DNA of 64,000 nucleotides, taken from positions 153,690 through 217,689 of the forward strand of contig JBDRJF010000001.1 of NCBI GenBank assembly GCA_043815185.1, given 5' to 3'. Source of the stretch: Candidatus Omnitrophota bacterium. Its GTDB lineage: Bacteria > Omnitrophota > Gorgyraeia > Duberdicusellales > 4484-171. The notes under the pieces were generated by a model. It saw only the letters and a program-made list of their open reading frames with translations, had not been told where the DNA came from and searched no databases. Made by a program: the position numbers and the translations under genes. Every line of letters starts with the position of its first letter. The stretch's first letter is position 1. Shown piece by piece: positions 27,962 to 47,829 of the stretch.

Positions 27962-29026
27962 TCAAAGCCACTCCTTTAGCTCTAAAATAGCCTCTTTTAT
28001 AAGTGAGTACACTTCTCGATACGTCGCTATATTTCTACCTACGGGATCGGGGATATCTTGCTCTGTCTCAGAAGGAAGAAATTTCTTTAGGTTAAACACC
28101 TTTCCTTCAACTTTAGGTTCAAGTTTCAAAATATATTGGCTCTGAACATCCTCCATGGTAAAAATCAAGTCAGCTGTGAGAACCGTAAATTGATCTAGCT
28201 TCTGAGCACAGAATCTACTGGCATCTAAACCTTCATTCTCTCTTAAAATACTTACCACCAAAGGAGACACTTTTAAACCGGGGGGTGCGGATATTCCCCG
28301 GGAAATTACCTCATACCCCTCCTCATAGTAAGGTCTTATCTCTTTTAGGTACTTACTGAGAAGAAACTGAGCCATCGGGGAACGACAACTATTGCCGGTA
28401 CAGACAAAAAGAATCCTTTTTCTCACAAATTCTCTAACTATATCACGTTCGGAGATAATCCCTTCTCTTAAGACTTTAAAAGGTTTACTGGTTATATCTA
28501 TTACTGTCGAAGGTTGTGACTGAAGGCATTTACCTCCGTCGACGATTAGATCTAACTCCTTACCAAAAATATCTTCTACCTCCTCGGCTGATAGCGCTTC
28601 CTTCTGGCCGCTTATGTTTGCCGAAGGAAGGTAAATAGCTGCATCCAATTGGTTTAAAATTTCACTAGTGATGATATGTGAAGGAATCCGCACGCCGATC
28701 TTCTCGTTCTTAAGCGTATAGTAAATTATTGTCAACGGCCCAGGCCAAAACTTTTCTATCAGGCGGTAACCATAAGGGGGCAGGGTATCAAAATAATCTC
28801 TGATCACCTTATCCACACTTCCCAAAGCAAAAGAAAATGGTTTATCTTTAGGCCTCTTCTTTAAAGCATAGAGTTTGTTAACCTTATCCTTTTTCTCGGC
28901 ACAAACACCCAAGCCATACACTGTCTCTGTAGGTAAGGCCACTATACCTCCCTTTTGAATAATCTTCACTACTTTCTTAATTAAAGAATAATCAATATCT
29001 TGGGGATTGATGAAGATTTTTTGCAT
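27962..29026 (-). CDS. tsaC: L-threonylcarbamoyladenylate synthase (TsaC/YrdC domain) fused to a low-molecular-weight phosphatase domain
   Basis: 354 aa. Residues 1-~200 form a YrdC domain (KGGIVALPTETVYGLG, KKRPKDKPFSF). Residues ~203-354 form an LMW-PTP/arsenate-reductase fold with the P-loop FVCTGNSCRS and the Asp loop DIPDPVG. Confidence 0.8.
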   Translation of the reverse strand: MQKIFINPQDIDYSLIKKVVKIIQKGGIVALPTETVYGLGVCAEKKDKVNKLYALKKRPKDKPFSFALGSVDKVIRDYFDTLPPYGYRLIEKFWPGPLTIIYYTLKNEKIGVRIPSHIITSEILNQLDAAIYLPSANISGQKEALSAEEVEDIFGKELDLIVDGGKCLQSQPSTVIDITSKPFKVLREGIISERDIVREFVRKRILFVCTGNSCRSPMAQFLLSKYLKEIRPYYEEGYEVISRGISAPPGLKVSPLVVSILRENEGLDASRFCAQKLDQFTVLTADLIFTMEDVQSQYILKLEPKVEGKVFNLKKFLPSETEQDIPDPVGRNIATYREVYSLIKEAILELKEWL

Positions 29027-35657: not shown

Positions 35658-36296
35658 TTACAATTTTTGCTTAAGCTTATCTACTGCCTGTTCCAGTGCC
35701 GAGATTTTCTCCTGCTGCTGTTTTATTGCCTCAATCAATACCGGTATAATACTGGTATAGTCAACGCCTAAGTATCCCTCCTGATCATCAACCACAGTTA
35801 CAGCTTCCGGCAATGTTTCCTGAACATTTTGAGCAATAAGGCCCAATTCTCGCTTATCTGAACCAATCATGTTGAAGTAGACACCATTGATGGCTTCTAG
35901 CTTTGAGATGGGATTACCGATAACCACAATATTTTCCTTGAGCCGCCGATCAGAAACATCGGTTAATGTACCAGTGTAATTAATATTACCGATTACATCC
36001 AGATTCCCCACTATATCCAAAGCAACATCAGGATTCCAGGTATTAATGCCGACGTTCCCTTCAACCAGTAAAATATCATCAGAATCGATGATATTGGTAC
36101 AAGCACCGCTCCAGCAATACTCTCCGGAGTCATAATAATTGGTTCCGATAGCCAATCTCAGCGAACGTACTTCATTATATACCCCATAGGGTGCCGGATA
36201 GTAAGTAGTCAGGGTAATGTCTTCGGCAAAAGCAAAACAGTAAAACAGACTAATAAATAAAGCAAACCAAAATTGGACAAGCTTTAATCTTCTCAT
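35658..36296 (-). CDS. secreted tail-fibre-like protein with C-terminal Peptidase S74 intramolecular-chaperone domain (paralog 1)
   Basis: 212 aa. The signal peptide is MRRLKLVQFWFALFISLFYCFAFA, followed by the conserved module EDITLTTYYPAPYGVYNEVR. Residues 115-212 (SDRRLKENI...GVYF...GLIAQNVQETLPEAV...VDYTSIIPVLIEAIKQQQEKISALEQ) match the endosialidase/tail-spike chaperone domain. A GAGGAGGAGG Shine-Dalgarno sequence precedes the start. Confidence 0.75.
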   Translation of the reverse strand: MRRLKLVQFWFALFISLFYCFAFAEDITLTTYYPAPYGVYNEVRSLRLAIGTNYYDSGEYCWSGACTNIIDSDDILLVEGNVGINTWNPDVALDIVGNLDVIGNINYTGTLTDVSDRRLKENIVVIGNPISKLEAINGVYFNMIGSDKRELGLIAQNVQETLPEAVTVVDDQEGYLGVDYTSIIPVLIEAIKQQQEKISALEQAVDKLKQKL

Positions 36297-36358
36297 TCCT
36301 GCCTCCTCCTCTTTTCTTTAAGCTTTAGCTGAAACATAGCTGATCGCTAATCAGGATT

Positions 36359-36387
36359 ATTATATATTTTATTTTCTGGTTATACAA
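36359..36387 (-). promoter_or_regulatory. candidate own promoter of fibre paralog 1 (TTGTAT-17-TATAAT)
   Basis: On the minus strand, TTGTAT is at 36382-36387 and TATAAT at 36359-36364. Confidence 0.4.
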
Positions 36388-36415
36388 ATTATTTTTGGGA
36401 AAAAATAGGTTACTT

Positions 36416-37234
36416 TCACTGCTTTGCTGAAAAACTCTCAGCTCTCGACGGAAATTTACCTTGCTTAACATCTTTAATAAAAAGAGCAGCGGCTTCTTTT
36501 ATCTCTGAAGCCAGATCCTTATAAACCCTTACAAATTTAGGCCGTTTCTCTTTATAAAGACCAAGAAAATCGTAACTAACCAGAACCTGGCCGTCGCAGT
36601 ATTTTCCAGCCCCGATACCAATAGTAGGAATTTTCAACTCCTTAGTAATCCTCCGGGCCAGTAAATAAGGAACGCACTCTAAAACCAGGCTAAATACCCC
36701 TAGATCCTCAAGCATTTTGGCCTGCTTGATTAAATTTAAAGCACTTTTAGGGTCTCGGCCCTGGACTTTGTATCCGCCCAAGAGATGAACAGTCTGGGGA
36801 GTAAGGCCAATATGGCCCATAACCGGTATTTTGTTTTTAATCAACTTCTTTACTACATAACCACAATCCTTCTTGTTTTTAGCCGAAAACCACTCTACTT
36901 TTACCGCTTCAGCACCGAGGCTAATGAACTTAGCCGCGTAGTCCAAACACTTTTCAGGACTCCTTTGGTAAGCAGCATAAGGCATATCTGCTACCACTAA
37001 AGCCCTGCTAACTCCTTTAGCTACAGCCCGGGTATGATTGAACATTTCAGCTAACTGGAGGTAACGGGTCTCCTTCATTCCCAAGACTACGTTAGAAAGC
37101 GAATCTCCGATTAAAACTATATCAATACCAGTAGAATCTAAAATCCCGGCAAAAGAGTAATCATAACAGGTAAGCATGGTTATCTTAGTTTTACCTTTCT
37201 TTTTGCGGATATCATTGATGGTTACCTTAGGCAT
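36416..37234 (-). CDS. panB: 3-methyl-2-oxobutanoate hydroxymethyltransferase
   Basis: 272 aa with ITMLTCYDYSFAG and VLIGDSL. Confidence 0.9.
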   Translation of the reverse strand: MPKVTINDIRKKKGKTKITMLTCYDYSFAGILDSTGIDIVLIGDSLSNVVLGMKETRYLQLAEMFNHTRAVAKGVSRALVVADMPYAAYQRSPEKCLDYAAKFISLGAEAVKVEWFSAKNKKDCGYVVKKLIKNKIPVMGHIGLTPQTVHLLGGYKVQGRDPKSALNLIKQAKMLEDLGVFSLVLECVPYLLARRITKELKIPTIGIGAGKYCDGQVLVSYDFLGLYKEKRPKFVRVYKDLASEIKEAAALFIKDVKQGKFPSRAESFSAKQ

Positions 37235-37260
37235 AAATGCAACCTTTTCCTTTTAATAAA

Positions 37261-38220
37261 TTATCTAAGAATATGCACTTCTTCCTGGTTACCTTTAGAG
37301 AGAACTAAAAATATCCTCATGGTTGAAGGGACTCTAGCCAGAAACTCCCTTATACCATCTAAGCCAAGAATAAAAAAAGCAGTAGCCAGGCTGTCGGCAG
37401 TAAAACAATTCTTGGTTATCACAGTCACACTTCTCAGATCATTATCTACCGGGTATCCCTTACGGGGATCAATCAGATGGGGGTAATCTTTACCTTGATA
37501 AGAAAAAAACTGTTCATAGCCCCCTGAGGTAGCTATAGCTTCATCAATTAATGATTGGGTCCTTAAAATATCCCTTAGCTGGCCGGGATCTTTTATGCCG
37601 ATTTCCCAGGGTTGCCCAAGTTGCTTTCCCAAACAATAGATGTCTCCGCCGGCATTAATCAAAGCACTCTCTATGCCTGTTTGCTTTAATTTAGCTATTG
37701 CCTTATCTACGATATAGCCCTTGGCAATGGCACTTAAATCAATAATTAAACCCTTCTTTTTTACTATTACTGTTCCGGTTTGGGAATCAACTTCTATAGC
37801 CTCTACTCCTCCCAATTCTCTTATCCTGGCCACTGCCTCGGGAGCAGGAAAACTCTTTACTGCTCCTTTACTAATTAACTCTTTCCAAAATTGATAGAGT
37901 GCGCCATGAGTTACGTCAAAGGCACCTTTACTTAAATCATAAACTTGCCGGCTAAGGCCTAAAATTTCGATTAATTCGGCCGAAGCTTTAAAAGGCTGGT
38001 TATAAGTCTTATTCAACCGGGAAATCTCCGAGTTTGGATCGTATAAATTAAAGATTTTATCCAAACGCTTAAACTCCTGATAAACAATACCGGCAGCTGC
38101 TGGATCAGCCGAGGTTACTTCCAGGTATGTTCCCAGGATTAGAAACTTCTTTCGATATAAAGGCTTTTGGCAAGAAGCAAAAATCAACAAAATGATTAAA
38201 ACTGCTATTTTTTTAACCAC
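37261..38220 (-). CDS. apbE: FAD:protein FMN transferase (ApbE family lipoprotein)
   Basis: 319 aa with a signal peptide and lipobox LLIFASC, then AKGY and AIATSGGYE. Confidence 0.8.
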   Translation of the reverse strand: MVKKIAVLIILLIFASCQKPLYRKKFLILGTYLEVTSADPAAAGIVYQEFKRLDKIFNLYDPNSEISRLNKTYNQPFKASAELIEILGLSRQVYDLSKGAFDVTHGALYQFWKELISKGAVKSFPAPEAVARIRELGGVEAIEVDSQTGTVIVKKKGLIIDLSAIAKGYIVDKAIAKLKQTGIESALINAGGDIYCLGKQLGQPWEIGIKDPGQLRDILRTQSLIDEAIATSGGYEQFFSYQGKDYPHLIDPRKGYPVDNDLRSVTVITKNCFTADSLATAFFILGLDGIREFLARVPSTMRIFLVLSKGNQEEVHILR

Positions 38221-39932
38221 TTAACAAGTTCCTCCCAACCCATACAATTCACAATATCTGCTTTTTCTAACCACCCCCGGCTGGCCAGGTTTAAACCCAG
38301 CTCCATGAATTCTAATTGTTCAATTGCATGAGAGTCTGTGTTGATGGCCAACTTCACCCCTCCTTTTTTTGCCCGCATTGCGCTGGAGTCTCTTAAATCC
38401 AAACGATAGGGGTGAGAATTAACCTCTAAAGCTACTTTGTAGTCGCGGCAAACTTGGATAATCCGGCCTAAGTCAATCTCATAAGGATCCCGGGAACCCC
38501 ACAATACGCCGGTAGGATGGGCAATAATATTTACGTACTTATTCTTACAAGCAGTAACAATCCTTTGAGTCAACTGCTCCCGGGATTGTTTAAAACCACT
38601 ATGAATTGCGGCAATAACAAAATCTAACCGGCTTAAGACCTTATCCGGATAATCAAGGCTGCCGTCGCCTAATATATCAACTTCTGCTCCGGCTAGTACC
38701 TTTATATTCTTTAACTTTTTATTTACCCTCTTAATTTCCTCAATCTTCTCATAAAGCTGCTCTATCGATACTCCTTTGGCTATTCTTAACCCTTGAGAAT
38801 GATCAGCTACTCCCAAATACTCATAGCCCCGTTTCTTTGCTGCCCTGGCGATTTCTTCAATACTGTTTCTTCCGTCACTATAGTTGCAATGAACATGAAG
38901 ATCGCCCCTGATATCTTTCAGATTAACCAATTTAGGCAGATTTTTCTTTAAGGCGGCCTCTATTTCTCCCAAGTCTTCGCGTAACTCCGGCCGAATATAG
39001 TCCATTCCCAAAACTGTGAAGATACCTTCTTCACTGGCACCGGCGATAAACTTCTCACCTAACTTCTTGCCTTGAGAAAATAATCCGTACTCGTTGATCT
39101 TGTAATTATTCTTCATGGCCAGCTGTCTGAGTTTTAGATTAAACTCTTTGGAACCGGTAAAATAAAGTAAGGCTGAACCAAAACTCTTTTTATCCACCAC
39201 CCTTAAATCAACCTGGATATTGTTGTCCCGGGCTAAAACTGAAGACTTAGTCTGGCCCTTAAGCAGAACTTGCGCCACTAAAGGAAGTGAGGCGAATTTA
39301 TCCATAACCTTTTTAGGATTTGATGAGATAACTAAAATATCAATATCTCTGATTGCTGCTTTCTTCCTTCTAAGCGAGCCGGCTACTTCAATCTTTCTAA
39401 CTTCTTTGATCTTTTTTAGCTCTTTAATAAAACTATCGGCAGAACATTGGGCAAGATAAAAGGGAGTTCTTTCGCGGCCTTTTTTTAAGATTGCCACCCC
39501 TCTTAAGATGTTTTCTACGGTTTTCTCTCTTATCCCCGCCAATTGAGCTAATGTCCCTGCTTGGGCAGCTTTGATTAGCTTATCAATACTATCAATTCCC
39601 TTCTTTTCATAAATAAGCCTGACTGTCTTAGGGCCTAAACCGGGAATCTGAAGCAGCTCAATTACTCCAGCCGGAATATCTTGTTTTAACTTCTGATAAA
39701 ACTTCAGTGAGCCAGTTGAAACTATCTCTTTGATTTTAGCGGCTAAATCACTGCCGATTCCGGGGACAGTAGTTAGCTGCTCCTGATTAACCTTATCTTC
39801 TAACTCATCGCCTAGTTTTTCTACTGCTTCTGCGGCTCGGCTGTAGGCCCGAATCCGAAAAGGGTTATCGCCTTTTAGCTCTAAAATCACAGCGATTTCT
39901 CTGAAGATGCCGGCAATTTCCTGACTCCTCAT
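38205..39932 (-). CDS. polX: DNA polymerase/3'-5' exonuclease PolX (Pol-beta-like domain plus PHP domain)
   Basis: 575 aa with HhH motifs VPGIGSDLA and IPGLGPKT, the nucleotidyltransferase motif GSLRRKKAAIRDIDILV, and the PHP motif DLHVHCNYSDG. Confidence 0.85.
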   Translation of the reverse strand: MRSQEIAGIFREIAVILELKGDNPFRIRAYSRAAEAVEKLGDELEDKVNQEQLTTVPGIGSDLAAKIKEIVSTGSLKFYQKLKQDIPAGVIELLQIPGLGPKTVRLIYEKKGIDSIDKLIKAAQAGTLAQLAGIREKTVENILRGVAILKKGRERTPFYLAQCSADSFIKELKKIKEVRKIEVAGSLRRKKAAIRDIDILVISSNPKKVMDKFASLPLVAQVLLKGQTKSSVLARDNNIQVDLRVVDKKSFGSALLYFTGSKEFNLKLRQLAMKNNYKINEYGLFSQGKKLGEKFIAGASEEGIFTVLGMDYIRPELREDLGEIEAALKKNLPKLVNLKDIRGDLHVHCNYSDGRNSIEEIARAAKKRGYEYLGVADHSQGLRIAKGVSIEQLYEKIEEIKRVNKKLKNIKVLAGAEVDILGDGSLDYPDKVLSRLDFVIAAIHSGFKQSREQLTQRIVTACKNKYVNIIAHPTGVLWGSRDPYEIDLGRIIQVCRDYKVALEVNSHPYRLDLRDSSAMRAKKGGVKLAINTDSHAIEQLEFMELGLNLASRGWLEKADIVNCMGWEELVKWLKK

Positions 39933-39944
39933 AAAAAAATGATT

Positions 39945-40376
39945 TTACTTACTGGCTTTATAGTCAGCAGAGACTTTATTTTTAATCCCCCCCCGGGAGG
40001 TAAATTCTCCGATTACTACAATCTGATAAGGTTTTAATACTTTTTTTAAATCTCCGAGGATTTTATTTACCACATGTTCATTGTAAATTTTTACATTGCG
40101 AAAGGAATAAAGATAGTACTTTAAAGACTTAAGTTCAATCAGCTTATGCCGGGGGGTATATTTTATGGTCAGCCTGGCAAAATCGGGAAGGCCGGAAAAG
40201 GGGCAAAGACAAGTAAACTCATCGGTAGCTAACTCGGTTGTAATTTTTTGCCGGGGATATTCGTAGGAGATAGTCTTTAAAATCGTTGAGTCTAAGTCTT
40301 GCGGCAGGGAAGCTTTACCGGCAGTCTTCCTGGCTTTTTTCTCACTCAAAGGAGCTGATCGGTTTTCGTAAATCAT
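39945..40376 (-). CDS. queF: NADPH-dependent 7-cyano-7-deazaguanine reductase
   Basis: Contains the QueF motif EFTCLCPFSGLPDFA plus the E..SLK.Y pattern. The ORF track extends to 40439, but I prefer the ATG at 40376 (MIYENRS...), which removes the overlap with the upstream gene. Confidence 0.85.
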   Translation of the reverse strand: MIYENRSAPLSEKKARKTAGKASLPQDLDSTILKTISYEYPRQKITTELATDEFTCLCPFSGLPDFARLTIKYTPRHKLIELKSLKYYLYSFRNVKIYNEHVVNKILGDLKKVLKPYQIVVIGEFTSRGGIKNKVSADYKASK

Positions 40377-40398
40377 CGGAATAGTTTTAAAAAGATTA

Positions 40399-41001
40399 CT
40401 AATTGCCGGGAATACAATAGGCGACCATCTCGGTAGCATCTACCGATTCACTAGTATCCCCTTGGCACCCGTAAGAATTTCCCGACTGCCTCAGAGCCGG
40501 TGCCCAGGAACCATTACCTTCACCGTCATTGGTATTGGACCCGTAGGCGCAAAAAACCCGGATATCTCCGGCATTACAATACACAATATTATTGGCACAA
40601 CCAACACAGCGGCCGGTAGAACGGGAATACATCCTGTTAAAAGTACTTTTTGCTGCCGCGCCGACAGCTTCCCAGCTTCCCACACCAGTAGCATCAGAAA
40701 CTAATATTTTATCAGCTCCCGGGCTGCCTTCGCGGATCCGAACCTGGCCGTTAACATCTAATTTTTGTGTTGGTGCGTCTGTCCCGATACCGGTACTACC
40801 GTTAACAACAAAATCACCGTCACCTAATGCCACATTCCGATAACTGCTGCCAATAGCCAGCTGATTAGTCCGAATCTCCTTATAAACCCCGTATGGCGCC
40901 GGGTAGTAGGTGGTAAGGGTGAAATTTTCGGCAGAAACAAAGTAATAAACTAAACCGATAATCAAAATAAACCAAAATCCAATAAGGCTAAGTTTTTTCA
41001 T
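40399..41001 (-). CDS. secreted tail-fibre-like protein with Cys-rich C-terminal domain (paralog 2)
   Basis: 200 aa. The signal peptide is MKKLSLIGFWFILIIGLVYYFVSA, followed by ENFTLTTYYPAPYGVYKEIR (colinear with paralog 1). Next comes a fibre-type motif GSTGIGTDAPTQKLDVNGQVRI..GSPGADKILVSDATGVGSWE, then a 6-Cys C-terminal region. An AAGGGGGGA Shine-Dalgarno sequence precedes the start. Confidence 0.65.
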   Translation of the reverse strand: MKKLSLIGFWFILIIGLVYYFVSAENFTLTTYYPAPYGVYKEIRTNQLAIGSSYRNVALGDGDFVVNGSTGIGTDAPTQKLDVNGQVRIREGSPGADKILVSDATGVGSWEAVGAAAKSTFNRMYSRSTGRCVGCANNIVYCNAGDIRVFCAYGSNTNDGEGNGSWAPALRQSGNSYGCQGDTSESVDATEMVAYCIPGN

Positions 41002-41060
41002 TCTTATCCCCCCTTTTCATTTTGTTAAGGTTAAGCCCCAAACGGATATCAATTATAGTT

Positions 41061-41089
41061 ATTATACGTTTCATCCTCTGCTTGGACAA
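41061..41089 (-). promoter_or_regulatory. candidate own promoter of fibre paralog 2 (TTGTCC-17-TATAAT)
   Basis: On the minus strand, TTGTCC is at 41084-41089 and TATAAT at 41061-41066. Confidence 0.4.
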
Positions 41090-41108
41090 ACTATTTTTAA
41101 AAAAATGG

Positions 41109-45176: not shown

Positions 45177-46568
45177 CTAATCCTCTTCGGGTTCTTGCTT
45201 TATTAGTTTTAAGTATAACTCCTCTAATTGAGCTTCTTTAATCTCCGAAGGTGCACCGCTAAGAAGACAACTCCCCTTCTGAGTCTTGGGAAATGCAATC
45301 ACATCCCGGATACTTTCAGAACCACTTATTATAGCATACAATCTATCTAAACCAAATGCAATCCCGCCATGCGGCGGAACCCCGTATTTAAAGGAACGGA
45401 GAAGAAATCCGAACTTCTTTTGAGCCTCTTCTTGAGATATTCCCAGAATTTCAAAAATTTTCTCCTGTAGGATCGAGGAGTGAATTCTTATTGAACCACT
45501 GCCAATCTCTGACCCGTTGAGGACTAAATCATAAGCCCGGGCTCTTATTTTCGATAAATCCTTACCCCAGGCCGATAGATCATCCTGCTGAGGCGCTGTA
45601 AAAGGGTGGTGGCAAGACTGCCAGCGCCCTGCATCTTGATTATATTCAAAAAGAGGAAAATCTACTACCCAGAGGAAACGATAGTCATCCTCTCCAAGAT
45701 CAGGTTTATCTGTTCCGTATTTTTCCATTGCCTCCTGATGTGATAAACGTAAAAAAGGTGTCTTGATATTCACTCCTAAGCACTTGGAGAAAACATCGGC
45801 AATCATCTTCTCGGCCAGTGAATAAATATCTTCTTCTTCCAAAAAAGACAACTCTATATCCAACTGCGTAAACTCCGGTTGCCGGTCGCTCCGCAAATCT
45901 TCATCCCGGAAACAACGTACAATCTGGTAATATTTATCCATACCGCTGACCATTAAAATTTGTTTAAAAATCTGTGGTGATTGGGGCAGGGCATAGAATT
46001 TATTGGGTTGCAGCCGTGAAGGAACCAGATAGTCCCGAGCTCCCTCAGGCGTAGATTTGGTGAGAAATGGCGTCTCTATCTCTAAAAAATTCTGCTGGTT
46101 AAGGAAATTTCTAAAGCCCTGGTTCAGCTTATGGCGTAAGACTAACTTCTGATAAACCGAAGCCCTCCTTAAATCAAGATAACGGTGTCTTAGGCGAATT
46201 TCCTCCCCCGCCTCTATTGCTTCATCGATATTAAAAGGCAAATCTTCTGCAGCGCTTAAAATACCTAACTCCTGAGCAGTGACCTCAATAAGACCGGTAG
46301 AGATTTTGGGATTCTCGGTCTTTTTAGGCCGACGGTTAACCGGCCCTCTAATCTTGATTACATCCTCATTTCTTAATTTCTTAGCTAAGGCGTAAGTAGC
46401 CGCATTAGGTTTGGGTAAAAAAATTACCTGAGTAATTCCGTATCTATCTCGTAAGTCAATAAAAATAAGCTTGCCATGATCGCGGCGGGAAGCCACCCAG
46501 CCGCACAAGACTACCTCTTTATCTACATTATCCTCTGTCAACTGGCCACAAGTATGCGTACGTAACAT
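45177..46568 (-). CDS. aspS: aspartate-tRNA ligase, bacterial type but without the GAD insertion domain
   Basis: Contains FRDEDLRSDRQPEFTQLD, HHPFTAP and GLDR. DKPDL is followed after only 8 residues by FLWVVDFPLF. I prefer the start at ATG 46568 (MLRTHTCGQL), which has AAGGAG 8 nt upstream; the ORF track extends to 46598. Confidence 0.85.
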   Translation of the reverse strand: MLRTHTCGQLTEDNVDKEVVLCGWVASRRDHGKLIFIDLRDRYGITQVIFLPKPNAATYALAKKLRNEDVIKIRGPVNRRPKKTENPKISTGLIEVTAQELGILSAAEDLPFNIDEAIEAGEEIRLRHRYLDLRRASVYQKLVLRHKLNQGFRNFLNQQNFLEIETPFLTKSTPEGARDYLVPSRLQPNKFYALPQSPQIFKQILMVSGMDKYYQIVRCFRDEDLRSDRQPEFTQLDIELSFLEEEDIYSLAEKMIADVFSKCLGVNIKTPFLRLSHQEAMEKYGTDKPDLGEDDYRFLWVVDFPLFEYNQDAGRWQSCHHPFTAPQQDDLSAWGKDLSKIRARAYDLVLNGSEIGSGSIRIHSSILQEKIFEILGISQEEAQKKFGFLLRSFKYGVPPHGGIAFGLDRLYAIISGSESIRDVIAFPKTQKGSCLLSGAPSEIKEAQLEELYLKLIKQEPEED

Positions 46569-46572
46569 TTCT

Positions 46573-47829
46573 TTACTCCTTAGGTTTAAATCTAGCAAGA
46601 AAATTCTCTAATCTTATATCCTCTTGAGTCGAGTCTTGCATATTTCTTAGGGCTAAATACCCAGTTTTATATTTATCTCCAGCTAAAATCACAACATATT
46701 TTGCACCTTTTTTCTGAGCAATTCGTAGCTGTGCTTTTAAAGACTTGCCACAATAATCAAAATCAGCGCTTATTCCTTTCTCTCTTAAGTTATTTAAAAA
46801 ATAAAAGCCTTCCTCAATCAGTGATTTGCTGTCAACGGCGATAAAATAATCTAACTTCTGCTTTTTCTTTGATTCGCCTAAACTTAAAAGAATACGCTCC
46901 AATCCTAAGGCAAAGCCAATAGCCGCTTTACTAGGACCTCCTAAAGATTCAACTAAATTATTATATCTTCCTCCGGCTCCAATTGCATCTTTAGAGCCTA
47001 AACCTGGAGCAGTAATTTCAAAAACAGTATTAGTATAGTAATCGAGTCCTCGAACCATGCAAGGATCGGGCTGAGCTACTACGCCTAACCGTTTAAGTAT
47101 ATTAAGCACATCTCGATAATGGTCAAAACATCCGGGACAAAGATTTTCTCCTACTTCCATATCTATATTAAAATACCCCCTTGCCGCCTTTTGACATTGA
47201 GGTTTTTTACAATCTAAAACTCTTAAAGGATTCTTATCTAACCTTCTCTGGCAATCCTCGCAAAGATCGCGCTTCCTTTCTAATAAATCCTTCCTTAACA
47301 TTTTGGCAAGCGTGTCCTTGTCTTCTTTACACCCCAAAGAATTTATTTTTAAAGTTTTATCTTTAATTCCTATTGCATCTAATATTTTCAAACTTAAGAT
47401 AATCATTTCAGCATCTAAATAAGCGCTGTTTGAACCAATGGCTTCAGCACCAATGTGGTGAAATTGACGCAGCCTTCCTTTCTGCGGCCGCTCGCCCCTA
47501 AACATAGCGCCTATATAAAACAACTTATGGAAATCACTTTTTTTATGGAGGGAGTTGGCAAGATAATACCTTATGACCTGAGCTGTTCCTTCCGGACGAA
47601 GAACTACATCTTTCCCTTCGATTTTAAATATTTGTCTTTCAACAATATCTGTAGTTTCGCCTACACTTTTAACAAATAAATCTTTTTCTTCTAATATCGG
47701 AAGGATAATCTCTTCATATCCGAATAGTTTAAATATTTTTGCAGCTGTTTTGTTGGCTCGATTAAATTCTAGAACGCTAGATCCATTAAAGTCAGACGTT
47801 CCACGCACACTAGAGTAAATTTTTTTCAC
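46573..47829 (-). CDS. hisS: histidine-tRNA ligase
   Basis: Contains LRPEGTA, FRGERPQKGRLRQFHHIG and AGGRYN. The ORF track begins at a TTG (47859). I prefer the GTG at 47829, which is preceded by AGGAGGAG. Confidence 0.85.
   Translation of the reverse strand: MKKIYSSVRGTSDFNGSSVLEFNRANKTAAKIFKLFGYEEIILPILEEKDLFVKSVGETTDIVERQIFKIEGKDVVLRPEGTAQVIRYYLANSLHKKSDFHKLFYIGAMFRGERPQKGRLRQFHHIGAEAIGSNSAYLDAEMIILSLKILDAIGIKDKTLKINSLGCKEDKDTLAKMLRKDLLERKRDLCEDCQRRLDKNPLRVLDCKKPQCQKAARGYFNIDMEVGENLCPGCFDHYRDVLNILKRLGVVAQPDPCMVRGLDYYTNTVFEITAPGLGSKDAIGAGGRYNNLVESLGGPSKAAIGFALGLERILLSLGESKKKQKLDYFIAVDSKSLIEEGFYFLNNLREKGISADFDYCGKSLKAQLRIAQKKGAKYVVILAGDKYKTGYLALRNMQDSTQEDIRLENFLARFKPKE

What the first reader, a model, noticed from the sequence alone, without database searches (positions are those of the whole stretch)
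35658..41001. Two paralogous secreted tail-fibre-like proteins share an unrecognised, strongly conserved N-terminal module (TLTTYYPAPYGVY)
ORFs 35658-36296 (212 aa) and 40399-41001 (200 aa) lie 4.1 kb apart. Each is wedged between unrelated housekeeping genes and each has its own TTGTnn-17-TATAAT promoter and a strong Shine-Dalgarno sequence. Their N-termini are colinear. Both have 24-aa signal peptides (MRRLKLVQFWFALFISLFYCFAFA and MKKLSLIGFWFILIIGLVYYFVSA), followed by E(D/N)(I/F)TLTTYYPAPYGVY(N/K)E(V/I)R...LAIG. Across the 13 codons TLTTYYPAPYGVY (36177-36215 and 40882-40920) the genes differ at 8 synonymous third positions and at no amino acid: ACC CTG ACT ACT TAC TAT CCG GCA CCC TAT GGG GTA TAT versus ACC CTT ACC ACC TAC TAC CCG GCG CCA TAC GGG GTT TAT. 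That pattern indicates an old duplication with strong purifying selection on this peptide. Downstream, both carry the G-x-x-G-I-(G/N)-T..P...LD(V/I).G motif familiar from phage tail-fibre/tailspike-like proteins. After that they diverge completely, into an S74 chaperone domain in one and a 6-Cys domain in the other. A conserved proximal docking module with exchangeable distal domains is the design logic of phage tail fibres. Here no phage, tailocin or secretion genes are nearby. My hypothesis is a family of trimeric cell-surface fibres or adhesins anchored through the YYPAPYGVY module. I do not recognise this module as a described domain.
Basis: partly seen in the sequence, partly recalled or inferred. 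Interest (0 to 1): 0.75.

Follow-up and report, generated by a model that had tools for sequence, protein, structure and literature searches.

The report
Miniature trimeric fibre proteins, new N-terminal tag
Two small exported proteins in this Omnitrophota genome belong to a large, unnamed family of miniature phage-tail-fibre-like trimers; they resemble the prey-recognition fibres of Bdellovibrio and all begin with the same invariant 16-residue peptide, which may tether them to the cell envelope.

Summary
ORFs 35658-36296 (A, 212 aa) and 40399-41001 (B, 200 aa) both carry TLTTYYPAPYGVY. The 13 codons differ at 8 synonymous sites and at no amino acid.

The window is a Candidatus Omnitrophota MAG. 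The N-terminal module is a signal peptide followed by E-x-[ILV]-T-[LI]-T-T-Y-Y-P-[AS]-P-Y-G-[VAI]-Y. It defines at least 5,547 protein clusters, always at residues 1-55. They come almost only from Omnitrophota and Elusimicrobiota, with several dispersed copies per genome. The module has no match in Pfam, NCBIfam, PDB, IMG/VR viral contigs or the literature.

Downstream, the VGIGTxxPxxxL loops match solved Bdellovibrio MAT (mosaic adhesive trimer) fibres; Bd2133 scores E 3e-14. Tips are exchangeable: S74 self-cleaving chaperone (protein A), Cys-rich knobs (protein B), C1q, lectins, YadA heads.

I read these as miniature MAT-like trimeric envelope fibres with a new, very short N-terminal docking or sorting peptide. 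The docking role, the partner and surface exposure are inferred, not shown.

Most copies sit among housekeeping genes. Three contexts recur: pheS-X-pheT, upstream of HxsD-HxsB (an antiphage system), and beside type IV pilus genes.

This is a new variant of a known kind. Interest is moderately high.

The parts
35658..36296 (-). Gene A, 212 aa: signal peptide, N-terminal module, one capping loop and an S74 intramolecular chaperone. NCBI names it 'tail fiber domain-containing protein'.
   Evidence: ORF. Identical to P0046 from a Candidatus Omnitrophota MAG. An orthologue with 84% identity sits at the same panB/purB position in L001, with dN/dS of about 0.25.
36225..36296 (-). Signal peptide of A, residues 1-24 (MRRLKLVQFWFALFISLFYCFAFA), with an A-F-A|E site
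   Evidence: Sequence. AlphaFold predicts a helix at 2-21. Family-wide rule-based check.
36177..36224 (-). N-terminal module of A, residues 25-40 (EDITLTTYYPAPYGVY)
   Evidence: Y, Y, P, P and G are invariant across the family and T, E and the final Y are nearly so.
36018..36059 (-). Capping-loop motif of A (GNVGINTWNPDVAL), 17 residues before the S74 cleavage serine
   Evidence: It aligns with the Bd3182 and Bd2133 capping loops. The motif is described in PMC10769870.
35661..35954 (-). S74 intramolecular chaperone and autoprotease domain of A, residues 115-212. The SDxxxK motif is S115-D116-R-R-L-K120, so cleavage after S115 is predicted.
   Evidence: Pfam PF13884, E 4.5e-13. PHROGs tail-fibre C-termini, E 5e-31. 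Alignment A3. pLDDT above 95. Foldseek hits to 7dc3, 3gw6 and 3gud.
36359..36387 (-). TTGTAT-17-TATAAT promoter-like site upstream of A (weak -35), followed by the Shine-Dalgarno sequence AAGAGGAGGAGG
   Evidence: Read. The scan does not call it. It is consistent with a promoter but is not evidence for one.
40399..41001 (-). Gene B, 200 aa: signal peptide, N-terminal module, one capping loop and an orphan six-Cys tip. NCBI names it 'hypothetical protein ABIE75_01045'.
   Evidence: ORF. Identical to P0001. No other protein covers more than 55% of it. The gene is absent from the syntenic sister genome L001.
40930..41001 (-). Signal peptide of B, residues 1-24 (MKKLSLIGFWFILIIGLVYYFVSA), with a V-S-A|E site
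   Evidence: AlphaFold predicts a helix at 2-23 with pLDDT above 90..
40882..40929 (-). N-terminal module of B, residues 25-40 (ENFTLTTYYPAPYGVY)
40759..40800 (-). Capping-loop motif of B (GSTGIGTDAPTQKL), followed by DVNGQVRIREGSPGADKILVSDATGVGSW
   Evidence: pLDDT is 77-92 over residues 41-100. The top Foldseek hits are all Bdellovibrio MAT fibres. Profile match.
40402..40659 (-). Cys-rich C-terminal tip of B, residues ~115-200, with six Cys. No detectable homologue. GC is 0.50 against a gene mean of 0.41.
   Evidence: The AlphaFold model is not confident here (pLDDT below 50).
41061..41089 (-). TTGTCC-17-TATAAT promoter-like site upstream of B
   Evidence: 10 of 12 matches. The number of such sites in the region is not above the shuffle expectation.
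40377..41108 (-). 732-bp recO-queF interval that holds gene B with its promoter-like site and Shine-Dalgarno sequence. The same interval is 42 bp in the sister genome.

Best explanation
A and B are two members of a large, unnamed family of miniature MAT-like trimeric fibre proteins of Omnitrophota and Elusimicrobiota.

Proposed mechanism, step by step:
1. Each precursor is exported by Sec. Signal peptidase I cuts 0-1 residue before a conserved Glu. The invariant peptide E-x-[ILV]-T-[LI]-T-T-Y-Y-P-[AS]-P-Y-G-[VAI]-Y thus becomes the extreme N-terminus of the mature chain. This step is inferred from sequence rules.
2. Three chains assemble into a short beta-helical stalk bounded by VGIGTxxPxxxL capping loops. 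The homology to solved Bdellovibrio MAT trimers is shown; trimerisation here is inferred.
3. In A, the C-terminal S74 domain chaperones trimerisation and then cuts itself off after Ser115, leaving a stub of about 91 residues per chain. The domain and its catalytic motif are shown; cleavage is inferred.
4. In B, the stalk ends in a disulphide-rich knob that has no detectable homologue.
5. Because dozens of different tips across thousands of family members keep the same N-terminal peptide, that peptide most likely engages one conserved component of the cell envelope. It would either dock the base of the fibre or be read as a sorting tag, so that a changeable repertoire of ligand-binding tips is displayed. 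This step is inferred and the partner is unknown.
6. In these ultra-small organisms, which are suspected to depend on hosts, the tips would bind glycans or proteins on other cells. This step is inferred by analogy with Bdellovibrio MATs.
For: Family size and position: a profile of the N-terminus finds 5,547 clusters (50% identity) at E<=1e-3 and 1,332 at E<=1e-10. In the 150 best hits listed, the match lies within the first ~80 residues, mostly at 1-55.

Distribution: exact TYYPAPYG occurs at 246 confirmed places in GTDB species genomes. Of the 78 loci kept, 49 are labelled Omnitrophota and 15 'uncultured Planctomycetia'. One of the latter, L001, is syntenic with this Omnitrophota window. Eight are Elusimicrobiota. 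One complete chromosome (CP070807.1) has at least 7 copies at 5 sites. A further 391 places were confirmed in metagenomes.

Invariance: Y, Y, P, P and G are 100% conserved, T 99%, the final Y 99% and the Glu at -6 95%, across 262 members.

Export: signal-peptide features are present in 186-191 of 191 members, and the cleavage site is 0-1 residue before the Glu in 154. 91 of 262 members have at least 4 Cys in the last 90 residues.

Fibre nature: the family profile matches Bd2133 (E 3e-14), Bd3182 (2.6e-5), Bd1334 (5.8e-4) and Bd2439 (3e-3), aligned on the capping loops. All of the top 11 Foldseek hits of model B are these fibres.

Tips: among 140 members, Pfam finds S74 in 19, YadA_head in 2, Gp53-like_C in 2, ApeC in 2, and Peptidase_G2, C1q and H_lectin in 1 each.

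S74 in A.

Selection: pN is 0 and pS 0.76 in the motif between A and B; orthologue dN/dS is 0.25.

Not phage: no confirmed hit in 2.9 million viral contigs, housekeeping neighbours, and a conserved pheS-X-pheT position in 13 + 11 loci.

Precedent: Bdellovibrio MATs have a signal peptide, an invariant N-proximal domain thought to bind an unidentified surface element, S74 or non-S74 tips and 21 paralogues, and they were localised to the predator surface (PMC10769870). Omnitrophota are proposed to be predators or parasites (PMC10066038).
Against: No partner for the N-terminal peptide was found. No unknown gene recurs next to family members.

AlphaFold monomer models leave residues 25-40 unstructured with pLDDT of about 50-64. 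No multimer prediction was possible.

Only Sec export can be inferred, with no route across an outer membrane, so a periplasmic location is not excluded.

The proteins are far shorter than MATs (median mature length 184 aa against about 600-1,000). Mature A would be little more than the module plus one capping loop, which is hard to picture as an adhesin.

The homology to MATs rests on the repeated loop and beta-helix motif. I could not compare the N-terminal modules because no full-length MAT sequence was available to me.

There are no expression data.
Confidence: 0.55

Rival explanations
1. The N-terminal peptide is mainly a sorting or processing tag read by dedicated machinery, not a static anchor. 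Candidates are the type IV pilus/T2SS apparatus, which could translocate the fibres or mount them on the pilus tip, or a modifying enzyme. The fibre part would be as in the best explanation.
For: Family genes sit directly after pilB-pilC-pilin(-pilT), or between pilin genes, in L029, L031 and L131, and near pilin-like genes in L008, L038 and L025. Type IV pili are near-universal in Omnitrophota (PMC10066038). The basic / hydrophobic / motif layout mirrors C-terminal sorting signals such as PEP-CTERM (my own knowledge). The peptide is unstructured in the monomer models. Caulton et al. also raise a possible interplay of MATs with type IV pili.
Against: Only about 6 of 156 loci are near pilus genes. 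Most are among housekeeping genes. The proteins have ordinary signal-peptidase I sites and no prepilin G|F motif. The window itself holds no pilus or secretion gene. Known sorting tags are usually less invariant than this peptide.
Confidence: 0.2
2. The proteins stay in the periplasm, free or tethered to the inner membrane by an uncleaved signal anchor. There they act in envelope defence against phages, for example as decoys for or sensors of phage tail proteins. This would fit their tail-fibre ancestry.
For: Family genes lie immediately upstream of HxsD-HxsB in L008, L043, L049 and L061, and within about 0.5-3 kb of HxsB in L041 and L065. Two further independent metagenome loci, L091 and L123, show the same arrangement. 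These loci span two phyla and several tip types. HXS is a periplasmic antiphage system that blocks DNA entry (PMC13128918). No outer-membrane export route is evident. The proteins are very short.
Against: Only about 8 of 156 loci are next to Hxs, and the window has no Hxs gene. Canonical HXS needs only HxsABCD. Lectin, C1q, ApeC and YadA-head tips are typical of extracellular adhesins. The homologous MAT fibres are on the cell surface. The (-3,-1) sites sit at a fixed position, which argues for cleavage.
Confidence: 0.1
3. The family forms pilus-like polymers. The N-terminal strand (I-T-L-T-T-Y-Y, with alternating hydrophobic residues) would be donated to the next subunit, as in chaperone-usher or type V pili. 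The short pheS-pheT subfamily would be the major subunit and the others would be tip adhesins.
For: The peptide lies at the mature N-terminus and has a beta-strand-like alternating pattern. A short (111-187 aa), conserved core subfamily sits at a fixed housekeeping position.
Against: S74, C1q and YadA-head tips and the MAT homology all indicate closed homotrimers, not head-to-tail polymers. No chaperone or usher-like neighbour was found. No common acceptor fold is evident among the very different C-termini.
Confidence: 0.07
4. The genes are stray remnants of prophage or tailocin tail-fibre genes with no cellular function.
For: The S74 domain of A matches many phage tail-fibre C-termini (PHROGs, E down to 5e-31). 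NCBI names A a 'tail fiber domain-containing protein'. B is present in this genome and absent from a sister species.
Against: The proteins have signal peptides, which phage tail fibres lack. The N-terminal module has no confirmed hit in 2.9 million viral contigs. There are no phage genes within about 15 kb. Purifying selection acts on the genes. The pheS-X-pheT synteny is conserved across many species. There are thousands of intact members and several per reduced genome.
Confidence: 0.03

Closest known systems
Bdellovibrio bacteriovorus MAT (mosaic adhesive trimer) fibre superfamily (Caulton et al., Nat Microbiol 2024, PMC10769870; PDB 8ond, 8ojn, 8oml, 8ol4)
   Same: Both have a Sec signal peptide followed at once by a family-invariant N-proximal module. 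Both have a trimeric beta-helical stalk with VG(I)G/N-T-x-x-P-x-x-x-L capping loops; the sequence-profile match to Bd2133 is E 3e-14. Tips are either an S74 self-cleaving chaperone or non-S74 domains, including TNF/C1q-like and lectin folds. Both have many paralogues scattered in the genome. In both, the partner of the N-module is unknown. Both organisms are predatory or suspected host-dependent.
   Different: The proteins here are 110-570 aa (median mature length 184), against about 600 to over 1,000 aa. The invariant module is a 16-residue Tyr/Pro-rich peptide, at most about 65 residues up to the first capping loop, against a ~130-aa beta-rich domain. The phyla differ (Omnitrophota and Elusimicrobiota against Bdellovibrionota). 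Nothing has been localised or assayed here. I could not test whether the two N-modules are related.
Phage tail fibres and tailspikes with a C-terminal S74 intramolecular chaperone (K1F endosialidase 3gw6, T5 pb1, GA-1 neck appendage 3gud)
   Same: Protein A has the S74 domain with the SDxxxK motif and the preceding capping loop. The design logic is shared: a conserved proximal end and an exchangeable distal end.
   Different: These proteins have signal peptides and lie in cellular housekeeping contexts. Their N-terminal module is absent from viral contigs. There are no virion genes nearby. The shaft is tiny.
Myelin regulatory factor (MyRF) ICA domain, 7dc3
   Same: It is the best structural match to the C-terminal half of A (Foldseek E 2e-6). 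Like A, it uses the phage chaperone/protease outside a phage to trimerise and then release an N-terminal part.
   Different: MyRF is a eukaryotic membrane-bound transcription factor. The released part there is a DNA-binding domain, not a fibre.
Adenovirus fibre N-terminal tail (conserved FNPVYPY motif) docking into the penton base (my own knowledge, not tested here)
   Same: It is a short, invariant Tyr/Pro-rich peptide at the N-terminus of a trimeric fibre with a variable distal knob, and it serves only to dock the fibre onto a conserved base. This is the closest mechanistic analogy for a 16-residue anchor.
   Different: There is no sequence relationship. It is a viral capsid context, and the partner is known there and unknown here.
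Trimeric autotransporter adhesins (YadA family)
   Same: Some family members carry YadA-head repeats (2 of 140; for example the 464-aa protein in L073). Both are trimeric surface adhesins with modular heads.
   Different: TAAs are anchored by a C-terminal 12-stranded beta-barrel. These proteins have no such anchor and carry the conserved module at the N-terminus.
'Tail fiber domain-containing proteins' of Bacteroidota, and small GIGT fibres with other N-termini
   Same: They share the same GIGT-x-x-P-x-x-K-L-D-V-x-G loops and the following KVLTSDxxGxxSW segment, have signal peptides, and are often S74-terminated (P0010, P0014 and P0031).
   Different: They lack the YYPAPYGVY module. In the Bacteroidota-type proteins the first loop follows the signal peptide directly. 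Another set carries a different N-terminal motif (AWT-x-PT-x-x-PP). Their function is also unknown.

Membership tests
MAT (mosaic adhesive trimer) superfamily | N-terminal Sec signal peptide | tested here: met
   Rule-based check only, as SignalP was not available. 191/191 members have a hydrophobic core, 190/191 have K/R before it and 186/191 have a (-3,-1) site. AlphaFold predicts N-terminal helices.
MAT (mosaic adhesive trimer) superfamily | [quoted passage not shown] | tested here: inconclusive
   A family-invariant module does follow the signal peptide, but it is 16 residues long, or about 65 up to the first capping loop. Whole mature proteins can be as short as ~80 aa. No full-length MAT sequence was obtainable, because the third homology search did not return Bd2133. 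Sequence relatedness of the N-modules was therefore not tested.
MAT (mosaic adhesive trimer) superfamily | Trimeric beta-helix stalk with capping-loop motif V-G-(I)-G/N-pi-x-x-P-x-x-x-L | tested here: met
   The motif is present in A and B. The family profile matches Bd2133 at E 3e-14, Bd3182 at 2.6e-5, Bd1334 at 5.8e-4 and Bd2439 at 3e-3, aligned on these loops. Foldseek top hits. The trimeric state itself was not testable.
MAT (mosaic adhesive trimer) superfamily | C-terminal S74 domain or an alternative adhesive tip (beta-sandwich, TNF-like, C-type lectin) | tested here: met
   S74 occurs in A and in 19 of 140 members. C1q, H_lectin, ApeC, Gp53-like_C and YadA_head occur in others. B has an orphan Cys-rich tip.
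MAT (mosaic adhesive trimer) superfamily | Long fibre (~600 to over 1,000 aa) | tested here: not met
   Family members are 110-570 aa, with a median mature length of 184 aa.
MAT (mosaic adhesive trimer) superfamily | Located on the cell surface and binds prey glycans | not testable with these tools
   Needs microscopy, proteomics and glycan arrays.
Peptidase S74 / intramolecular chaperone auto-processing domain (protein A only) | Domain fold and the S-D-x-x-x-K catalytic motif | tested here: met
   PF13884, E 4.5e-13 against a cutoff of 22 bits. S115-D116...K120 aligns with near-invariant D116. pLDDT above 95. Foldseek hits to 7dc3, 3gw6 and 3gud.
Peptidase S74 / intramolecular chaperone auto-processing domain (protein A only) | Autoproteolytic release after trimerisation | not testable with these tools
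   Needs expression of the wild type and the S115A mutant.
Phage or tailocin tail fibre (prophage remnant) | Encoded within a cluster of virion or tail genes, with no signal peptide | tested here: not met
   Housekeeping neighbours over at least 15 kb. Signal peptide present. The module has no confirmed hit in IMG/VR.
Type IV pilin / pseudopilin | Prepilin leader G|F-x-x-x-E followed by a hydrophobic helix | tested here: not met
   The hydrophobic segment precedes the motif, and there is no G|F site and no TIGR02532 hit.
Trimeric autotransporter adhesin | C-terminal YadA-type membrane anchor | tested here: not met
   No YadA_anchor hit in A, B or the 140 members scanned. Only head repeats were found, in 2 members.
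HXS antiphage system component | Encoded with HxsA/B/C/D and required for defence | tested here: inconclusive
   About 8 of 156 family loci adjoin HxsD/HxsB. There is none in this window. Published HXS systems consist of four genes without such a protein.

The most novel reading that the evidence does not exclude
The invariant peptide E-x-I-T-L-T-T-Y-Y-P-A-P-Y-G-V-Y would be a new kind of N-terminal envelope-docking or sorting tag, specific to Omnitrophota and Elusimicrobiota. It would plug a rapidly exchangeable arsenal of miniature trimeric receptor-binding proteins into one conserved envelope structure, possibly the type IV pilus or an outer-membrane complex. The family would then be the host- or prey-recognition repertoire of these uncultured nanobacteria, and the tag would be a handle for finding and pulling down that apparatus.
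Probability: 0.35. Interest if true: 0.8.

Novelty: new variant of a known kind. Interest (0 to 1): 0.62.

Why it matters
Omnitrophota are abundant, uncultured, ultra-small bacteria thought to live as predators or parasites. How they recognise partner cells is unknown, and discussion so far has centred on giant ORFs and pili.

This finding points to a multi-copy, fast-turning-over family of small fibres homologous to the prey-recognition fibres of Bdellovibrio. The family comprises thousands of clusters, which suggests a shared phage-derived toolkit for cell-cell recognition in unrelated predatory lineages.

The invariant 16-residue peptide is a simple sequence tag. It can be used to catalogue the whole repertoire in any metagenome, to follow tip swapping, and to fish for the still unknown envelope partner. 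The same question is open for Bdellovibrio MATs.

The family also shows how small a functional S74-matured trimer can be.

Tried and rejected
- Pfam, NCBIfam and PHROGs scans of A, B and homologues found no model covering the N-terminal module. The precomputed label PF26696 on P0007 and P0064 could not be reproduced with the local Pfam copy.
- A PDB search with the N-terminal profile gave only chance-level hits (E >= 0.68).
- Full-text searches for 'YYPAPYG' and for Omnitrophota plus 'tail fiber' found no paper. Two Omnitrophota genome papers do not mention the family.
- AlphaFold monomer models gave no structure for residues 25-40 or for the tip of B. No multimer tool was available.
- A search for a conserved unknown neighbour found none. 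The recurrent neighbours are housekeeping genes (pheS/pheT, trkAH, thrS), Hxs genes or pilus genes.
- I tried to obtain a full-length Bdellovibrio MAT sequence so as to compare N-terminal domains. The search with a Bd2133 fragment returned only other small fibres, and the paper's supplement holds no sequences.
- Conservation at the nucleotide or RNA level was rejected, because synonymous sites in the motif are saturated.
- A RiPP or bacteriocin-leader reading was rejected. The proteins are 110-570 aa with structural repeats and trimer domains, and the Hxs-adjacent members have no His-x-Ser repeats.
- The promoter claim cannot be supported statistically.

Full report
**1. The observation**

Both ORFs are present on the minus strand: A at 35658-36296 (212 aa) and B at 40399-41001 (200 aa). 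TLTTYYPAPYGVY is encoded at 36177-36215 and at 40882-40920. A six-frame search allowing five mismatches finds it nowhere else in the 64 kb. The two 39-nt stretches differ at eight positions, all third positions and all synonymous. By Nei-Gojobori counting, the proportion of synonymous differences in the motif is 0.76, which is saturated, and the non-synonymous proportion is 0. Over residues 25-51 the values are 0.93 and 0.15. The conservation therefore acts on the peptide and not on the DNA, and the duplication is old.

BLASTP aligns A and B only over the first ~100 residues (44% identity, E 3e-25). The flanking genes are housekeeping genes: purL and purB | A | panB, apbE, polX and queF | B | recO, ybeY, an HDIG protein and phoH. 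Further out lie dnaE, guaA, aspS, hisS, purM, purD and recG.

The promoter claim is the weakest part of the observation. TTGTCC-17-TATAAT upstream of B is detected. The site upstream of A has a poor -35 hexamer and is not called. Promoter-like sites in the region are no more frequent than in shuffled sequence.

**2. Source organism and size of the family**

B is identical to a hypothetical protein, and A to a 'tail fiber domain-containing protein', of a Candidatus Omnitrophota MAG on a 265-kb contig.

Homologues share a basic/hydrophobic leader and then E-x-[ILV]-T-[LI]-T-T-Y-Y-P-[AS]-P-Y-G-[VAI]-Y-x-E-[LM]-R. Across 262 members, Y, Y, P, P and G are 100% conserved and the Glu six residues before the T-Y-Y is 95% conserved.

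A profile of this N-terminus was searched against 1.84 billion representative proteins. It finds 5,547 clusters at E<=1e-3 and 1,332 at E<=1e-10. In the 150 best hits listed, the match lies within the first ~80 residues, mostly at 1-55.

Exact TYYPAPYG occurs at 246 confirmed places in one-genome-per-species GTDB genomes. Of the 78 loci kept, 49 are labelled Omnitrophota and 15 'uncultured Planctomycetia'. L001, one of the latter, is syntenic with this window, so at least that label is too coarse. Eight loci are Elusimicrobiota and six are other or unclassified. A complete 1.8-Mb chromosome has at least seven copies at five sites. JGI metagenomes add 391 confirmed places.

No Pfam or NCBIfam model, PDB chain or searchable paper covers the module. 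In 2.9 million viral contigs it has no confirmed hit.

**3. Anatomy**

*Leader.* All 191 members tested have a hydrophobic core and 190 have K/R before it. 186 have a (-3,-1) signal-peptidase site, and in 154 of them it lies 0-1 residue before the conserved Glu. The invariant peptide would therefore be the extreme N-terminus of the mature protein. Many members have an even number of Cys clustered in the C-terminal 90 residues. That fits an extracytoplasmic location.

*Stalk.* Both proteins have one G-x-(x)-G-I-(G/N)-T-x-x-P-x-x-x-L loop, and they are the only genes in the window that do. Other members have one to five such loops. A profile of 140 full-length members matches solved Bdellovibrio fibre fragments: Bd2133 at E 3e-14, Bd3182 at 2.6e-5, Bd1334 at 5.8e-4 and Bd2439 at 3e-3. 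The alignments fall on exactly these loops. The eleven best, individually weak, Foldseek hits of the AlphaFold model of B are the same fibres. In the crystal structures these loops cap trimeric beta-helix domains, and the same loop precedes the S74 domain in MyRF (PMC10769870).

*Tips.* A ends in an S74 intramolecular chaperone. The evidence is Pfam at E 4.5e-13, PHROGs tail-fibre C-termini at E down to 5e-31, the SDxxxK motif at S115-K120, pLDDT above 95, and Foldseek hits to the MyRF ICA domain and the endosialidase and GA-1 chaperones. After self-cleavage, mature A would be only about 91 residues per chain.

B ends in a six-Cys domain of about 85 residues. This domain has no detectable homologue and no confident model.

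Across 140 members, Pfam finds S74 in 19, YadA_head in 2, Gp53-like_C in 2, ApeC in 2, and Peptidase_G2 IMC, C1q and H_lectin in 1 each. These are trimer-forming or carbohydrate-binding head domains.

**4. Genomic context and dynamics**

No phage, tailocin or unknown gene recurs beside family members. Three contexts do recur.

- A short subfamily (111-187 aa, with YG(A/N)Y) lies between pheS and pheT in 13 GTDB loci and 11 metagenome loci.
- Family genes lie directly upstream of HxsD-HxsB in L008, L043, L049 and L061 and near HxsB in L041 and L065. L091 and L123 are further independent cases. These loci span two phyla and different tip types. HXS is a periplasmic antiphage system that blocks DNA entry, and it is rare outside Pseudomonadota (PMC13128918).
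- Family genes follow pilB-pilC-pilin(-pilT), or sit between pilin genes, in L029, L031 and L131.

The window holds none of these partner genes.

Gene A has an orthologue with 84% identity at the same position in sister genome L001. Its dN/dS is 0.25 overall and is highest in the stalk (0.39). Gene B is absent from L001: there recO and queF are 42 bp apart, against 732 bp here. B is also somewhat GC-richer than its neighbours (0.47 against 0.41 +/- 0.02). The family therefore combines stable members with gain and loss of members that carry unique tips.

**5. Most likely mechanism**

The design is a signal peptide, a family-invariant proximal module, a trimeric stalk with capping loops, and an S74 or other adhesive tip, present as many dispersed paralogues. 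This is the design of the MAT fibres that Bdellovibrio displays on its surface to recognise prey. The stalks are homologous.

I therefore read A and B as miniature MAT-like trimers exported by Sec. A is matured by S74 autoproteolysis and B is capped by a disulphide-rich knob.

Thousands of proteins with unrelated tips keep one identical 16-residue peptide at the mature N-terminus. The most economical reading is that this peptide engages a single conserved envelope component, either as a docking site or as a sorting tag. A mechanistic analogy, from my own knowledge, is the FNPVYPY tail of the adenovirus fibre, which docks into the penton base.

The shown steps are the sequence features, the homology, the distribution and the selection. 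The inferred steps are signal-peptide cleavage, trimerisation, S74 cleavage, docking, surface exposure and ligand binding.

I give this reading a probability of about 0.55. The rivals are:
- a sorting or pilus-linked tag, 0.2
- a periplasmic, defence-linked protein, 0.1
- a donor-strand polymer, 0.07
- a phage remnant, 0.03

**6. Comparison with known families and novelty**

Against the MAT definition, four features are met: the signal peptide, the capping-loop stalk, the S74/non-S74 tips and the multiplicity. The length criterion is not met. The ~130-aa N-domain criterion is unresolved, because I could not obtain a full-length MAT sequence. The module here is far shorter in any case.

The proteins are not phage tail fibres by context, not pilins and not autotransporters. 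The N-terminal peptide itself is undescribed.

I classify the finding as a new variant of a known kind. It matters because it offers a simple tag for cataloguing, and a handle for isolating, a probable cell-recognition apparatus of an abundant uncultured phylum that is suspected of predation or parasitism (PMC10066038).

Noticed in passing
window 40377-41108; L001 3880-3921: Gene B, with its promoter-like site and Shine-Dalgarno sequence, is a presence/absence difference between sister genomes. The recO-queF interval is 732 bp here and 42 bp in L001. B has a higher GC than its neighbours (0.47, tip 0.50, against 0.41 +/- 0.02). No flanking repeats were looked for.
   Followed up: partly
window 39945-40439: The mechanical queF ORF overlaps the 3' end of gene B by 41 nt. 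The L001 orthologue starts at MIYENR, so the real queF start is probably the ATG at 40374-40376 and there is no overlap.
   Followed up: yes
L007, L023, L032, L033, L048, L064, L068, L070, L074, L076, L078 and 11 metagenome loci (e.g. L082, L087, L095, L096): A short subfamily (111-187 aa; motif YG(A/N)Y; C-terminus ...NATAYSxGG...TVxNGIIT) is inserted between pheS and pheT, normally an uninterrupted operon, in many Omnitrophota species. It may be the conserved core member of the family.
   Followed up: partly
L008 7977-11495; L043 7998-10851; L049 5485-7986; L061 1977-5413; also L041, L065, L091, L123: Family genes lie immediately upstream of HxsD and HxsB, the His-Xaa-Ser radical-SAM antiphage system. 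HxS-repeat ORFs are present in L008 (~12402) and L041 (~13676). This occurs in two phyla and with different tip types. The adjacent family proteins have no HxS repeats.
   Followed up: partly
L031 2155-9738; L029 12-9011; L131 3425-9884: Family genes are embedded in or appended to type IV pilus clusters. In L031 the order is secretin-PilB-PilC-pilin-pilin-FAM-PilV-like, where FAM is the family gene. In L131 the order is PilB-PilC-pilin-PilT-FAM.
   Followed up: partly
P0253, P0254, P0258: Other small fibres with the same GNVGIGTxxPxxKLEVAGTIHSTSGGIKFPDG stalk carry a different N-terminal motif after the hydrophobic leader (AWT-x-PT-x-x-PP...N). This suggests lineage-specific proximal modules on a shared stalk.
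   Followed up: no
L001 and 14 other loci labelled 'uncultured Planctomycetia': L001 is syntenic with this Omnitrophota window; the family protein is 84% identical and the flanking proteins are visibly very similar. The NCBI label on L001 is therefore too coarse, and the other 14 binchicken MAGs with the same label are probably Omnitrophota too, though this was not checked.
   Followed up: partly
L054 (Patescibacteria-labelled MAG), L071 (Lysobacterales-labelled MAG): These are isolated family members in MAGs assigned to unrelated phyla. Possible causes are mis-binning or rare transfer.
   Followed up: no
P0007, P0064; L039 7845-8678: Some members carry a segment GFLLPRMTxxQRDAI...G.xxYN...W after the first loop. 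It is labelled PF26696 in the precomputed annotation, but the local Pfam copy could not reproduce this.
   Followed up: partly
window 45177-46598: The AspS here is only 473 aa and matches the 590-position bacterial model in two stretches. It appears to lack the insertion (GAD) domain.
   Followed up: no
window 27962-29026: A single 354-aa ORF appears to fuse L-threonylcarbamoyladenylate synthase (TsaC/Sua5-type, residues 7-194) to a low-molecular-weight phosphotyrosine phosphatase or ArsC-like domain (residues 204-349).
   Followed up: no
L073 6483-7877: This family member has YadA-head-type repeats but no autotransporter beta-barrel. The TAA-like head would depend on the N-terminal module for attachment.
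   Followed up: no
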